This document shows positions 1,783-2,226 of a stretch of DNA of 34,554 nt, piece by piece. Positions within the stretch are counted from its first letter, which is position 1. Each line of letters starts with the position of its first letter. This stretch comes from a phage. Below the pieces are notes generated by a model. It did not search any database. It saw only the letters and a list, made by a program, of their open reading frames with translations, and was not told the origin of the DNA. The position numbers and the translations under genes are program-made. The stretch lies in the NCBI GenBank assembly GCA_037431425.1, contig GCA_037431425.1_4129.4. The stretch is one strand, 5' to 3'.

Positions 1783-2178
1783 ATGATTACTAAATTCTAC
1801 GCTACCCGTGAAGCTGCCCGTATTGTTGCACGCGAGGAAGGAGCGACATTTAAAGACATGGGCAAAGATGCACCGAAAGGCCAACGTTGGGCCGTACAGT
1901 TCAAAGAAATCTCTGATATTGTGAATTCACCTGAACCAGTACTGACAGCAGCAGAACAGAAGAAAGCTGATGAACTGGCGGCAATTCTTAACGCTCAAGA
2001 TGAATTCGTCGAGGGTACTGATATCCAGGTTGTAGTAAATTCGAATGCATGGACTCACGCGGATCATCTGGCTAACTTGAAGCGTCCAAGCGTACTGATT
2101 CGCAACCAGAAAGAGATCCGACACGACCGTAAGGGTAATCGTGTAACAGTATACAGTAAACGCCGCCAGGTTATCTAA
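1783..2178 (+). CDS. hypothetical protein (131 aa), locally GC-rich
   Basis: Second ATG (1783) has proper spacing from RBS AGGA; track start 1774 abuts the RBS; followed by a strong terminator. Confidence 0.7.
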   Translation: MITKFYATREAARIVAREEGATFKDMGKDAPKGQRWAVQFKEISDIVNSPEPVLTAAEQKKADELAAILNAQDEFVEGTDIQVVVNSNAWTHADHLANLKRPSVLIRNQKEIRHDRKGNRVTVYSKRRQVI

Positions 2179-2200
2179 TCCCTAGCAGTACTAACAACAC

Positions 2201-2226
2201 GGCGGGATCTGTTCCCGCCTTTTTTA
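2201..2226 (+). terminator. intrinsic terminator
   Basis: GGCGGGA-tctgt-TCCCGCC followed by TTTTTT. Confidence 0.75.

What the first reader, a model, noticed from the sequence alone, without database searches (positions are those of the whole stretch)
1783..2226. Compositionally atypical gene with a strong terminator, and an overall composition step at about 7.2 kb
The 1783..2178 ORF is visibly more GC-rich (roughly mid-40s %) than its neighbours and ends with the best canonical terminator in the window. More broadly, the first 7 kb looks close to 40% GC while the paralog arrays look close to 30%. Different composition suggests different evolutionary origin or residence time, with the small-gene block being a mosaic of acquired cassettes.
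Basis: seen in the sequence. Interest (0 to 1): 0.4.

Follow-up and report, generated by a model that had tools for sequence, protein, structure and literature searches.

The report
GC step marks phage terminal repeat
The GC-rich gene and the GC drop at 7.2 kb are real. The drop falls exactly at the end of the roughly 21-kb terminal repeat of an E. coli jumbo phage, a block of strongly promoted small genes with host-like codon usage, so the gene is an old resident of that block and not a recent import.

Summary
ORF 1783..2178 is 46.5% GC and is the GC maximum of the window. Its terminator (2201-2225) is the strongest on the coding strand. GC falls from 37.8% to 31.4%, with the best-fitting change point at 7210.

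The window comes from an Asteriusvirus, a 350-kb E. coli jumbo phage. Position 7191 is exactly the end of the 20.7-21.5 kb direct terminal repeat (DTR) that is annotated or experimentally mapped in relatives. DNA left of 7191 occurs twice in 10 related genomes. DNA right of it occurs once.

The DTR part consists of one-gene cassettes: a consensus sigma-70 promoter, a small ORF and a hairpin. Its genes avoid the E. coli rare codons AGA and ATA, score higher on E. coli codon adaptation, and lack the CpG depletion seen in the rest of the genome.

The same step occurs at the DTR end of Klebsiella phage Muenster, which belongs to a different genus.

The target gene is a conserved, DTR-resident gene of unknown function found across RaK2-like phages, and it is GC-rich in every one examined. 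It has the highest codon adaptation in the window. About two thirds of its GC excess comes from an Ala/Arg/Val-rich protein and about one third from codon choice.

Recent foreign origin is not supported. Cassette shuffling between related phages is.

The parts
1..7191 (+). Distal 7.19 kb of the long direct terminal repeat (DTR) of an Asteriusvirus genome. It holds small genes, each with its own promoter. GC is 37.8%.
   Evidence: The left end of the G17 record aligns up to window 7191. The vB_Ec-M-J feature 'Direct Terminal Repeats 1..21525' maps to 7191 exactly. So does the fEgEco12 DTR of 20,993 bp, which was defined by PhageTerm and confirmed by restriction digests. Window 6692-7191 occurs twice in 10 records, whereas 7192-7691 occurs once in all 34 records.
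7192..34554 (+). Start of the unique part of the genome: tightly packed arrays of paralogous small genes. GC is 31.4%. Codon adaptation is lowest here and AGA/ATA use is highest.
   Evidence: In the TH47 genome the 30 kb after the DTR is the GC minimum of the whole genome.
1710..1738 (+). Perfect sigma-70 promoter, TTGACA-17-TATAAT, with AGTACT motifs at 1702 and 1726.
   Evidence: It matches 12 of 12 consensus positions. Both hexamers are identical in TH47 and ECO103.
1771..1774 (+). Shine-Dalgarno sequence AGGA, 8 nt before the ATG at 1783.
   Evidence: Read directly from the sequence.
1783..2178 (+). Target gene. It encodes a 131-aa, 14.9-kDa protein with pI 9.5. The protein has a conserved N-terminal beta-alpha-beta-beta module (invariant R9, D25, R35, W36), an acidic variable linker and a very basic C-terminal beta-hairpin. 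It belongs to phrog_8127. Function is unknown.
   Evidence: Substitutions between relatives concentrate at third codon positions (18 of 31 and 25 of 47).
2201..2225 (+). Intrinsic terminator: a 7-bp stem with 6 G-C pairs, a 5-nt loop and T6. It probably acts as an attenuator, because the next gene has no promoter of its own.
   Evidence: The stem is conserved in TH47 and ECO103. It is annotated in G17 at -15.1 kcal/mol. No promoter-like site was found on the + strand between 1739 and 2492.
2242..2496 (+). Gene for an 84-aa protein with a ParE-like toxin domain. It starts 16 nt after the terminator's T-run.
   Evidence: Pfam PF24732, E=1.6e-10. The same gene follows the target's homolog in Muenster, where it is annotated 'YafQ-like toxin', and in contigs L019 and L020.
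2828..3412 (+). Gene for a 194-aa protein-kinase-like protein. Its position after the target gene is conserved across genera.
   Evidence: Weak Pkinase hits. It is annotated as a protein kinase in ph0011 and Muenster.
3424..3461 (+). Hairpin-promoter cassette. A 12-bp stem carries the -35 element TTGACT and is followed by TATTAT. An identical copy lies at 5707-5744 and a variant at 484-521.
   Evidence: two exact 38-nt copies against 0 expected.
5707..5744 (+). Second exact copy of the hairpin-promoter cassette.
7230..7257 (+). First promoter-like site of the unique region (TTGACT-16-TAAAAT), directly before the first array gene at 7258.

Best explanation
The window runs from inside the long direct terminal repeat (DTR) of an Asteriusvirus jumbo phage into the unique part of the genome. 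The DTR ends at window position 7191, and that boundary is the '7.2 kb composition step'.

The DTR part is a module of one-gene expression cassettes. Each has a consensus host sigma-70 promoter, often a 5' GC-rich hairpin, a ribosome-binding site, a small ORF, and a hairpin or terminator. I infer that the host RNA polymerase and the unmodified host translation machinery express these genes first after infection, much like the T5 pre-early genes and the SPO1 host-takeover module, which also lie in terminal repeats.

Consistent with that inference, DTR genes use host-adapted codons. They avoid AGA, AGG, ATA and ACA and prefer CGT/CGC, ATC and CTG. The arrays just beyond the DTR use exactly the codons served by the phage's own tRNAs: Arg-UCU, Thr-UGU and Ser-GCU.

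ORF 1783..2178 is the extreme member of this class. It is a conserved, DTR-resident gene of RaK2-like phages with a perfect promoter, a good ribosome-binding site, the highest codon adaptation in the window and the strongest terminator. About two thirds of its GC excess over its neighbours comes from an Ala/Arg/Val-rich protein and about one third from codon choice.

I take the product to be an abundant first-wave protein. Given its basic N-terminal module and very basic C-terminal hairpin, it most likely binds nucleic acid or a nucleic-acid-handling host complex. The terminator probably sets a high-to-low expression ratio between this gene and the ParE-like gene behind it.

Shown here: the location in the DTR, the cassette anatomy, the codon and dinucleotide differences, and the conservation. 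Inferred: early timing, selection as the cause of the composition, and the protein's activity.
For: Identity of the window: 85-93% nucleotide identity to 37 Asteriusvirus records.

DTR end at 7191:
- Alignment to the G17 genome end.
- The annotated DTR of vB_Ec-M-J, 1..21525.
- The fEgEco12 DTR of 20,993 bp, defined by PhageTerm and confirmed by restriction digests.
- The Sharanji DTR of 20,668 bp, and the roughly 20-kb redundancy seen in G17 read coverage.
- The left flank is duplicated in 10 records, while the right flank is single in all 34.

Step: change point at 7210, log-likelihood ratio 51.7. In the TH47 genome it is the second-largest 5-kb GC step in 352 kb.

Architecture:
- There are 8 promoters matching at least 11 of 12 consensus positions in 7.2 kb, against 8 in the following 27.4 kb. 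Five of the 6 perfect promoters lie in the DTR part.
- Intergenic DNA makes up 27% of the DTR part and 10% of the rest.

Codons:
- CAI against 24 E. coli ribosomal-protein and rpoA genes is 0.474 in the DTR part and 0.327 beyond it (p=1.3e-9). The target ranks first of 92 ORFs. Sharp-Li weights recalled from memory give the same ranking.
- ATA is 5% of Ile codons in the DTR part and 32% beyond it (p=2e-12). AGA is 10% and 44% of Arg codons (p=1e-10).
- Phe, Asp, Lys, Glu, Gln and Val codons show no shift, so the difference is not a uniform GC pressure.
- Intergenic GC differs by only 2 points, against 8 points in coding DNA.
- TH47 encodes tRNAs Arg-UCU, Ser-GCU, Asn-GUU and Thr-UGU.

Replication in another genus (Klebsiella phage Muenster): the DTR (1-20030) is 35.8% GC and the next 25 kb is 27.2%. 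The change point is at 19,865. CAI is 0.307 against 0.205 (p=1e-9). The same AGA, ATA and CTG contrasts appear. The ortholog is 44.5% GC and ranks third of 43 DTR genes by CAI.

Gene age: homologs occur in Asteriusvirus, Alcyoneusvirus, and Erwinia, Yersinia, Serratia, Cronobacter and Salmonella jumbo phages. Where a DTR is annotated, the homolog lies inside it.

GC decomposition of the target: observed 0.469. Expected from its amino acids using the average codon choice of the other DTR-part genes: 0.441. The mean of that expectation across the DTR-part genes is about 0.39. Ala is 12.3% of the protein, against 6.6% in the DTR-part genes overall and 3.1% beyond the DTR.

Equilibrium test: the equilibrium GC of the DTR part is 0.366 (CI 0.33-0.40) against 0.393 now.
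Against: - No expression data exist for any RaK2-like phage in what I could read, so 'first expressed' is an inference from promoter sequence and from analogy. The CBB paper also only suspects it.
- CGG, a rare codon in E. coli, makes up 13-18% of Arg codons in the DTR and 0.4% elsewhere. Selection for fast translation does not predict this.
- The DTR also lacks CpG depletion at codon boundaries (observed/expected 1.07 against 0.70) and partly in intergenic DNA (0.83 against 0.62-0.77). This points to a DNA-level difference beyond codon choice.
- Genome-wide, DTR codon adaptation is only modestly above the genome mean (0.450 against 0.407). Much of the step is due to the unusually poor, AT-rich arrays after the DTR.
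- The left edge of the compositional island is less sharp than the right edge.
- The protein has no Pfam, NCBIfam, PADLOC or PDB match, and no significant structural match to any solved structure. Its proposed activity therefore rests only on charge and predicted secondary structure.
- That position 7191 is a physical genome end in this particular phage is inferred by homology.
Confidence: 0.6

Rival explanations
1. The GC-rich gene, and the first 7 kb more broadly, are DNA acquired from a higher-GC source such as the host, plasmids or temperate phages. This DNA has not yet drifted to the phage's AT-rich composition.
For: - Atypical GC.
- The DTR has the most atypical dinucleotide signature in the TH47 genome: delta* of 108-112 against a median of 35.
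- Its Arg codon spectrum, including CGG, resembles an average E. coli gene more than a highly expressed one. The E. coli average values are from my own knowledge.
- The DTR carries toxin-antitoxin-like genes of bacterial type: ParE/YafQ-like, and YeeU-like in Muenster.
- Cassettes are gained and lost between relatives.
Against: - The target is present in all 37 matching Asteriusvirus records and at the same DTR position in other genera.
- Of the family's 63 representatives (clusters at 50% identity) among 1.8 billion, every one whose genomic context I could see comes from a phage or a phage-like contig. The hits labelled 'E. coli' sit on contigs of about 350 kb.
- Orthologs 42-66% identical in protein are still 44-47% GC in genomes of 32-35% GC. 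The excess has therefore persisted over long divergence.
- The same step occurs at the Muenster DTR end.
- The equilibrium GC of the DTR is near its current GC.
- The DTR part is more conserved than the flank: 93% identity against 83-89%.
Confidence: 0.1
2. A recombination-linked bias. The two DTR copies must recombine or be copied from one another in every cycle. Repeated heteroduplex repair, acting as GC-biased gene conversion or as a different repair regime, raises GC and preserves CpG in the repeat only. This would explain why the boundary is so exact.
For: - The step coincides with the repeat end within the support interval of the change point (7210; 6996-7465) in the window, and within about 165 bp in Muenster.
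- CpG depletion is absent in the DTR even at codon boundaries, and is reduced in its intergenic DNA.
- CGG and all-GC tetramers are enriched in the DTR. Translation efficiency does not explain these.
Against: - AAG, GAG, GAC and TTC do not rise in the DTR, whereas a general bias from A/T towards G/C should raise them.
- Intergenic GC is only 2 points higher.
- Polarised substitutions show no excess of A/T-to-G/C changes in the DTR: 214 against 240 in the opposite direction, giving an equilibrium GC of 0.366.
- The left edge of the island is gradual.
Confidence: 0.15
3. The step is mainly a dip, not a rise. The paralog arrays after the DTR are fast-evolving, weakly constrained genes that have drifted to extreme AT-richness, and the DTR is close to normal for the genome.
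For: - TH47 is 35.05% GC overall. The 30 kb after the DTR is the genome minimum at 30.5-33.6%, and has the lowest CAI (0.336) and the highest AGA/AGG use, about 58% of Arg codons over the 30 kb and up to 67% in one 10-kb bin.
- That region is less conserved between genomes: 83-89% identity against 93%.
Against: - The DTR (38.7%) is itself above the genome mean. It holds 9 of the 11 most GC-rich ORFs out of 553 and has the top dinucleotide-signature deviation.
- The equilibrium GC of the arrays (0.328) is at or slightly above their current GC (0.315), so they are not still drifting towards AT.
- This reading complements the main explanation and does not replace it.
Confidence: 0.3
4. About the gene itself. 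The product is the antitoxin-like partner, or neutraliser, of the ParE-like protein encoded just downstream. The terminator between them would set the usual excess of antitoxin over toxin.
For: - The pair of target followed by a ParE_like gene is conserved in the window, in Muenster and in two distant metagenomic contigs.
- The downstream gene has no promoter of its own and starts 16 nt after the T-run.
Against: - The whole neighbourhood keeps its gene order in these phages, so adjacency is weak evidence.
- The 87-aa paralog near the DTR start is not followed by a ParE-like gene.
- The protein has no ribbon-helix-helix, helix-turn-helix or AbrB antitoxin signature and no Pfam or PADLOC hit.
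- Type II toxin-antitoxin pairs normally lack a strong internal terminator (established knowledge).
Confidence: 0.12

Closest known systems
Phage T5 pre-early (first-step-transfer) genes in the long terminal repeat
   Same: A long, non-permuted direct terminal repeat carries small genes with strong host-RNA-polymerase promoters. PhageTerm classifies the Asteriusvirus UE-S1 ends as 'long DTR, T5 type'. The genes are present in two copies per virion genome.
   Different: - No two-step DNA transfer is known for RaK2-like phages.
- I found no sequence homology to T5 A1, A2 or dmp.
- The repeat is twice as long, about 21 kb against about 10 kb.
- The compositional and codon contrast at the repeat boundary is, to my knowledge, not a described feature of T5.
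- Early timing is untested here.
Phage SPO1 host-takeover module in the terminal redundancy (Stewart et al. 1998, cited from memory)
   Same: A cluster of about two dozen small genes lies inside the terminal redundancy. Each gene, or each pair, has a strong host-sigma promoter, a strong ribosome-binding site and terminators.
   Different: The host is Gram-positive and the proteins are unrelated. The analogy rests on architecture only.
Promoter-early stem-loop (PeSL) cassettes of T4-type phages (Arbiol et al. 2010, cited from memory)
   Same: Repeated intergenic units combine an early sigma-70 promoter with a stem-loop. They flank small genes of unknown function, and they coincide with gene gain, loss or replacement between relatives.
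   Different: The sequences are different. Here some hairpins carry the -35 element inside the stem (3424, 5707), while others lie at the 5' end of the transcript (117, 1325, 4478, 4810, 5453). Recombination at these sites is inferred from alignment breakpoints and has not been shown.
Horizontally acquired genomic islands, defined by atypical GC and dinucleotide signature (Karlin)
   Same: Atypical GC, atypical dinucleotide signature and atypical codon use.
   Different: The 'island' is a conserved, same-position structural compartment of the genome in at least two genera, and it is near compositional equilibrium.
PHROG family phrog_8127
   Same: The protein matches the family over its full length, E=2.6e-36.
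   Different: The family has no known function, so membership names the protein but explains nothing.

Membership tests
Long direct terminal repeat of Asteriusvirus (T5-type ends) | The sequence is present at both ends of the linear genome. | tested here: met
   Tested by homology. Window 6692-7191 occurs twice in 10 related records and ends at record position 1-3 in G17, WPEC3 and WPEC5. Window 7192-7691 occurs once in all 34 records.
Long direct terminal repeat of Asteriusvirus (T5-type ends) | The boundary has been defined experimentally or from sequencing reads. | tested here: met
   The boundary was defined in relatives and maps to window 7191. For fEgEco12, PhageTerm plus restriction digests give 20,993 bp. 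The vB_Ec-M-J annotation gives 1..21525. For Sharanji, PhageTerm gives 20,668 bp. G17 read coverage shows the redundancy.
Long direct terminal repeat of Asteriusvirus (T5-type ends) | Doubled read depth and defined ends in the phage this window itself comes from. | not testable with these tools
   No reads or virion DNA are available for this window.
Sigma-70-dependent early transcription unit | -35 and -10 hexamers with 16-18 nt spacing, a ribosome-binding site, and an intrinsic terminator. | tested here: met
   TTGACA-17-TATAAT at 1710-1738, AGGA at 1771-1774, and a hairpin plus T6 at 2201-2225. All are conserved in TH47 and ECO103.
Sigma-70-dependent early transcription unit | Transcribed by host RNA polymerase in the first minutes of infection. 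| not testable with these tools
   I found no transcriptome for any RaK2-like phage.
Recently acquired foreign gene | Atypical base composition and oligonucleotide signature. | tested here: met
Recently acquired foreign gene | Patchy distribution among close relatives, with homologs in a plausible donor. | tested here: not met
   The gene is present in all 37 matching Asteriusvirus records and, at the same position, in other genera. Every hit whose context could be seen is from a phage or a phage-like contig.
Recently acquired foreign gene | Composition is decaying towards that of the recipient genome. | tested here: inconclusive
   The equilibrium GC is 0.366 (CI 0.33-0.40) against 0.393 now. 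This is compatible with equilibrium or with slow decay. The estimate comes from three-genome parsimony only.
Type II toxin-antitoxin pair (ParE/RelE-type toxin with an upstream antitoxin) | A small upstream gene is co-transcribed with a toxin-family gene. | tested here: met
   PF24732 ParE_like matches the downstream gene, E=1.6e-10. That gene has no promoter of its own. The pair is conserved.
Type II toxin-antitoxin pair (ParE/RelE-type toxin with an upstream antitoxin) | The upstream protein has a recognised antitoxin DNA-binding domain (ribbon-helix-helix, helix-turn-helix or AbrB). | tested here: not met
   There is no Pfam, NCBIfam or PADLOC hit. The predicted N-terminal module is beta-alpha-beta-beta.
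Type II toxin-antitoxin pair (ParE/RelE-type toxin with an upstream antitoxin) | Neutralisation of the toxin's toxicity. | not testable with these tools
   This needs co-expression experiments.
phrog_8127 | A significant full-length match to the family profile. | tested here: met
   E=2.6e-36, protein residues 4-134 (numbered from the ATG at 1774) against profile positions 1-104 of 113.

The most novel reading that the evidence does not exclude
The terminal repeat of RaK2-like jumbo phages is a maintained compositional compartment with its own codon regime. First-wave genes are written in host-adapted codons and lack the CpG depletion of the rest of the genome. This would be because they must be translated before the phage's own tRNAs (Arg-UCU, Thr-UGU, Ser-GCU, Asn-GUU) and other translation modifiers are available. 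Genes outside the repeat are written for the phage-modified cell. The 131-aa protein would then be the most strongly expressed first-wave effector, from a protein family with no match to any solved structure.
Probability: 0.3. Interest if true: 0.6.

Novelty: new member of a known kind. Interest (0 to 1): 0.4.

Why it matters
It turns an unexplained GC anomaly into a usable landmark. In RaK2-like jumbo phages the end of the terminal repeat can be read from composition and codon usage alone. This helps to orient and correctly start the many genome records that were deposited circularly permuted with the repeat collapsed.

It also gives a testable hypothesis for why a phage genome would keep two codon dialects: early genes tuned to host tRNAs and later genes tuned to phage tRNAs.

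Finally, it singles out one conserved, probably very highly expressed gene of unknown function, together with its 87-aa paralog, as a priority target for work on host takeover or anti-defence in a phage group now used in therapy studies.

Tried and rejected
Searches for the protein's function, none of which gave an assignment:
- Pfam, NCBIfam and PADLOC, and PDB sequence searches with the single protein and with a 60-sequence profile, gave nothing.
- Structural comparison (Foldseek) of two AlphaFold models against the PDB gave no significant match. The best was E=0.028 with TM 0.26, to ribosomal proteins.
- The viral structure library returned only uncharacterised jumbo-phage homologs.
- Rfam found no RNA family in the window.

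Explanations considered and rejected:
- Antitoxin idea: I tested whether the 87-aa paralog is also followed by a ParE-like gene. It is not.
- Host origin: the hits labelled 'E. coli' are contigs of about 350 kb, or fragments, that are phage.
- Mixing artefact: I asked whether the high CpG and GpC ratios in the DTR merely result from mixing AT-rich spacers with GC-rich genes. My own arithmetic gives an effect of only about 2%, far too small for 0.74 against 1.08.
- Uniform GC pressure as the cause of the codon shift: rejected because Phe, Asp, Lys, Glu, Gln and Val codons do not shift.

Checks on method:
- CAI weights recalled from memory were re-checked with an empirical E. coli reference set and gave the same result.
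- The 1774 start codon was rejected in favour of 1783 because of ribosome-binding-site spacing and the annotation in relatives.
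Full report
**What is at the coordinates**

The 500-nt GC profile peaks at 0.446 over 1751-2250. ORF 1783..2178 is 46.5% GC, and its three codon positions are 0.60, 0.38 and 0.41. The richest 396-nt window in the 34.5 kb (48.0%, starting at 1824) overlaps the ORF, and only 0.2% of such windows reach the ORF's value. Among the 19 ORFs of the first 7.2 kb it is a moderate outlier (z=1.8, binomial p=1e-3), and ORF 6829..7038 is equally GC-rich.

The transcription unit can be read directly from the sequence:
- a perfect TTGACA-17-TATAAT promoter at 1710-1738;
- AGGA at 1771-1774, 8 nt before the ATG at 1783;
- the stop codon at 2176-2178;
- a hairpin GGCGGGA/TCCCGCC at 2201-2219 followed by T6.

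In a uniform scan of both strands this is the strongest hairpin-plus-T-run on the coding strand, at -13.9 kcal/mol. The promoter hexamers and the terminator stem are conserved in two other genomes. Substitutions within the ORF concentrate at third codon positions, at 18 of 31 and 25 of 47, so this is a real protein-coding gene under purifying selection. Rfam finds nothing in the window.

**Where the window comes from**

The region is 85-93% identical to 37 Asteriusvirus records, which are E. coli and Salmonella jumbo phages of about 350 kb in the 121Q/PBECO4/G17 group. The target corresponds to G17_00016, annotated 'hypothetical protein', and G17 annotates the same terminator at -15.1 kcal/mol, the strongest of ten in 15 kb.

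**The 7.2-kb step is the end of the direct terminal repeat**

GC is 37.8% for positions 1-7200 and 31.4% after that. The best-fitting single change point is 7210, with support interval 6996-7465. The log-likelihood ratio is 51.7, against at most 13.7 in block shuffles.

Several independent lines place the DTR end at window 7191:
- G17 was deposited as a linear genome with both repeat copies, and its record position 1 aligns to window 7191.
- Korf et al. reported about 20 kb of terminal redundancy in G17 from read coverage (PMC6563267).
- The 'Direct Terminal Repeats' feature of vB_Ec-M-J, 1..21525, ends at the base that aligns to window 7191.
- The fEgEco12 repeat of 20,993 bp, defined by PhageTerm and confirmed by restriction digests, ends at the same base (PMC13070987).
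- Sharanji has a 20,668-bp DTR (PMC11895373), and UE-S1 is called 'long DTR, T5 type' (PMC12805682).
- The 500 nt left of 7191 occur twice in ten records, ending at record positions 1-3 in three of them. The 500 nt right of 7191 occur once in all 34 records.

The window therefore covers the last 7.19 kb of the repeat and the first 27 kb of unique DNA.

**How the two sides differ**

Architecture:
- The DTR part has 8 promoters matching at least 11 of 12 consensus positions in 7.2 kb. The remaining 27.4 kb also has 8. Five of the 6 perfect promoters lie in the DTR part.
- Non-coding DNA makes up 27% of the DTR part and 10% of the rest.
- The DTR part contains several families of repeated regulatory cassettes.

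Composition: coding GC differs by 8 points (0.393 against 0.314), whereas intergenic GC differs by only 2 points (0.336 against 0.315).

Codon use:
- CAI against 24 E. coli K-12 ribosomal-protein and rpoA genes is 0.474±0.070 in the DTR part and 0.327±0.056 beyond it (p=1.3e-9). The target has the highest value of all 92 ORFs, 0.594. Sharp-Li weights taken from memory gave the same ranking.
- The shift is not uniform. ATA is 5% of Ile codons against 32% (p=2e-12). AGA is 10% of Arg codons against 44% (p=1e-10). ATC, CTG, CGC and GGC are higher in the DTR part. Phe, Asp, Lys, Glu, Gln and Val codons do not move.
- The phage tRNAs found in relatives read the codons favoured outside the repeat. 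TH47 has Arg-UCU, Ser-GCU, Asn-GUU and Thr-UGU. fEgEco12 has Ser-UGA, Ser-GCU, a CAU tRNA, Asn-GUU and two Thr-UGU.

**Genome-wide view**

I fetched the whole TH47 genome, 352,450 bp at 35.05% GC.
- The DTR-equivalent region, 246,481-264,990 in window orientation, is 38.7% GC.
- The 30 kb after it is the genome minimum, at 30.5-33.6%.
- The step at the DTR end is the second-largest 5-kb step in the genome.
- Nine of the 11 most GC-rich ORFs out of 553 lie in the DTR.
- Mean CAI is 0.450 in the DTR, 0.407 in the rest and 0.336 in the post-DTR arrays. The target ortholog ranks 41st of 553.

The step is therefore a rise and a dip placed next to each other.

The DTR is also the most atypical region by dinucleotide signature, with delta* of 108-112 against a median of 35. 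CpG observed/expected is 1.08 in the DTR against 0.74 elsewhere. The difference holds at codon boundaries (1.07 against 0.70) and partly in intergenic DNA. CGG makes up 13% of Arg codons in the DTR against 0.4% elsewhere (p=3e-24). Codon adaptation does not explain these two features.

**Is the pattern inherited or recent?**

Klebsiella phage Muenster (Alcyoneusvirus) has an annotated repeat at 1-20,030.
- GC is 35.8% inside the repeat and 27.2% in the next 25 kb. The change point is at 19,865 with a log-likelihood ratio of 193.
- CAI is 0.307 against 0.205 (p=1e-9), and the same AGA, ATA, CTG and CGG contrasts appear.
- The target's ortholog, Muenster_040, lies in the repeat, is 44.5% GC and ranks third of 43 DTR genes by CAI.
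- It is followed by the same ParE/YafQ-like gene and then a protein-kinase gene.

Homologs of the target occur in Asteriusvirus, Alcyoneusvirus, and Erwinia, Yersinia, Serratia, Cronobacter and Salmonella jumbo phages. Where a repeat is annotated, the homolog is inside it.

A three-genome parsimony count (window, TH47, ECO103) gives an equilibrium GC of 0.366 (CI 0.33-0.40) for the DTR part, against 0.393 now. For the flank it gives 0.328 (CI 0.314-0.343) against 0.315 now. The DTR part is also more conserved, at 93% identity against 83-89%.

The contrast is old and roughly at equilibrium. This argues against recent import and for a force that maintains it.

**Why the target gene is the GC maximum**

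Its observed GC is 0.469. The GC expected from its amino-acid sequence, using the average codon choice of the other DTR-part genes, is 0.441. The mean of that expectation across the DTR-part genes is about 0.39. Roughly two thirds of the excess is therefore due to amino-acid composition: Ala 12.3%, Arg 8.5% and Val 9.2%. About one third is extra codon bias: Arg is encoded by 6 CGT, 4 CGC and 1 CGA with no AGA or AGG; there is no ATA; and 4 of 6 Leu codons are CTG.

An 87-aa paralog lies near the start of the repeat, outside the window. In TH47 it is 47.3% GC. GC-richness is thus a property of the family.

**The protein**

It has 131 aa, a mass of 14.9 kDa and pI 9.5. The pI is 9.3 for the N-terminal 45 residues, 4.2 for the linker and 11.9 for the last 36 residues.

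The family is small: 63 representatives (clusters at 50% identity) among 1.8 billion. It has an N-terminal module with invariant R9, D25, R35 and W36 and a C-terminal basic hairpin. The linker varies, is absent in the short forms, and some members consist of the N-terminal module alone.

AlphaFold gives beta-alpha-beta-beta, then helices, then a long beta-hairpin, with pLDDT 72.8. For the short paralog the order is beta-alpha-beta-beta-alpha-beta-beta, with pLDDT 82.9. No solved structure matches significantly. Pfam, NCBIfam, PADLOC and PDB sequence searches are all empty. PHROGs places it in phrog_8127, whose function is unknown.

I therefore commit, with low confidence, to an abundant first-wave protein that binds nucleic acid or a nucleic-acid-handling host complex.

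The ParE-like gene downstream has no promoter of its own, so the 'strong terminator' probably works as an attenuator. An antitoxin role for the target is possible but weak, because the paralog lacks such a neighbour and the protein has no known antitoxin fold.

**The 'mosaic of cassettes' idea**

Comparison with ph0011 and G17 shows block-wise identity of 84-100%. Those two phages carry two cassettes that the window lacks, and one cassette is replaced. The alignment breakpoints fall at repeated promoter elements, at 1121/1269, 2830 and 3852/3899.

This resembles the promoter/stem-loop cassettes proposed to drive modular shuffling in T4-type phages (cited from memory). The claim of different origin for the target gene does not.

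**Comparison with the literature**

The repeat itself is published for several relatives. The CBB paper suspected that small genes with RpoD-like promoters, some of them in the repeat, are early genes (PMC5259590). In the papers I read I found no description of a compositional, codon or dinucleotide boundary at the repeat end, or of this gene. The finding is therefore a new and fairly ordinary member of a known kind, a terminal-repeat early module, with a descriptive twist worth testing.

Noticed in passing
Whole window (119 sites, e.g. 1702, 1726, 1938, 2187); TH47 genome; Muenster L016: The 6-bp palindrome AGTACT (extended form CAGTACTG) is hugely over-represented.
- Window: 119 sites against 9.8±3.4 expected.
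- TH47 genome: 917 against 119 expected. It is the top palindrome and among the top three of all 6-mers.
- Muenster, 45 kb: 215 against 15 expected.

Density is highest in the DTR, at 6.6 per kb against 2.4. In promoters the motif sits just before the -10 element, is fused to the -35 element (TTGACAGTACT), or lies just upstream of it. Inside genes it occurs in all three reading frames, so it is a DNA-level motif and not a peptide motif. 'CAGTACTAACAA' between the stop codon and the terminator of the target gene is conserved in Muenster. I found no literature on it.
   Followed up: partly
Window 1-7191 against the rest; TH47 DTR (rc 246,481-264,990) against the rest of the genome: CGG, a rare codon in E. 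coli, makes up 13-18% of Arg codons in DTR genes, spread at about one per gene. Elsewhere it is almost absent: 0.4% in the rest of TH47 (p=3e-24), 0.3% in the window after 7191, and 1% in the 25 kb after the Muenster DTR. This is not explained by translational selection.
   Followed up: partly
TH47 genome (L006-L013), DTR against the rest: Outside the DTR the genome shows CpG depletion with CpA/TpG excess in all codon contexts. CpG observed/expected is 0.70 at the boundary between codon position 3 and the next position 1, and 0.52 across positions 2-3. Inside the DTR the corresponding values are 1.07 and 0.97. The DTR is the top dinucleotide-signature outlier of the genome. The cause is unknown.
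   Followed up: partly
3424-3461 and 5707-5744 (identical); variant at 484-521: These are hairpin-promoter cassettes. A 12-13 bp stem contains the -35 hexamer (TTGACT) in its 5' arm and is followed by TATTAT. G17 annotates them as terminators. They look like combined 'stop the previous gene, start the next gene' units.
   Followed up: partly
117, 1325, 4478, 4810, 5453 (5' leaders); 2203 (target terminator); 2928: GC-rich hairpins of the form GGGGA..TCCCC occur at 7 sites, all in the DTR part, with none in the following 27 kb (about 0.04 expected). Five of them begin 12-14 nt after a -10 element, at the very 5' end of the predicted transcripts, within a repeated leader (TATAATGTTTTAYATAGAG-hairpin-TCCTAACAAA). 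The target's terminator belongs to the same hairpin family.
   Followed up: partly
1085-1112, 1281-1308, 3857-3884; and 2493-2540, 2770-2817: Promoter blocks are re-used verbatim. TAAGTATTGACAAAGTATCTTAGTACTGTATAAT occurs three times. TTGACAGTACTCAAATATTTTAGTACTAT, together with its leader ATATCTATACCAACAC, occurs twice.
   Followed up: no
Outside the window: TH47 rc 248,970-249,233 (about 2.5 kb from the DTR start): An 87-aa paralog of the target lacks the linker and is 47.3% GC. Every Asteriusvirus record carries both paralogs in the DTR, and the records that include both repeat copies show four places.
   Followed up: partly
2242-2496 and 2828-3412: A ParE-like toxin-domain gene has no promoter of its own. 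A 194-aa kinase-like gene gives weak hits to the PD-T4-6 defence kinases. Muenster's DTR also carries YeeU-like and YafQ-like genes. Toxin-antitoxin-derived and kinase genes in an early module suggest counter-defence functions.
   Followed up: no
TH47 genome: Several 6-bp palindromes are completely absent: GGTACC, GCATGC, TCCGGA, TGGCCA and TGCGCA, with about 35 of each expected. This is typical restriction-site avoidance.
   Followed up: no
Window 1-9000 against ph0011 (L023) and G17 (L001): Identity is block-wise, at 84-100%. Two cassettes are present in ph0011 and G17 but absent here: a 243-nt gene between window 2769 and 2828, and a roughly 405-nt gene near 3900. A different small gene sits at 1143-1277. 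The breakpoints fall at the repeated promoter cassettes.
   Followed up: partly
7258-11110 and beyond: The first genes of the unique region are an array of 64-90-aa paralogs sharing a G-T-N-Y-Q-E/D motif. They are joined by overlapping stop and start codons. They have the lowest codon adaptation and the highest AGA/ATA use in the genome.
   Followed up: no
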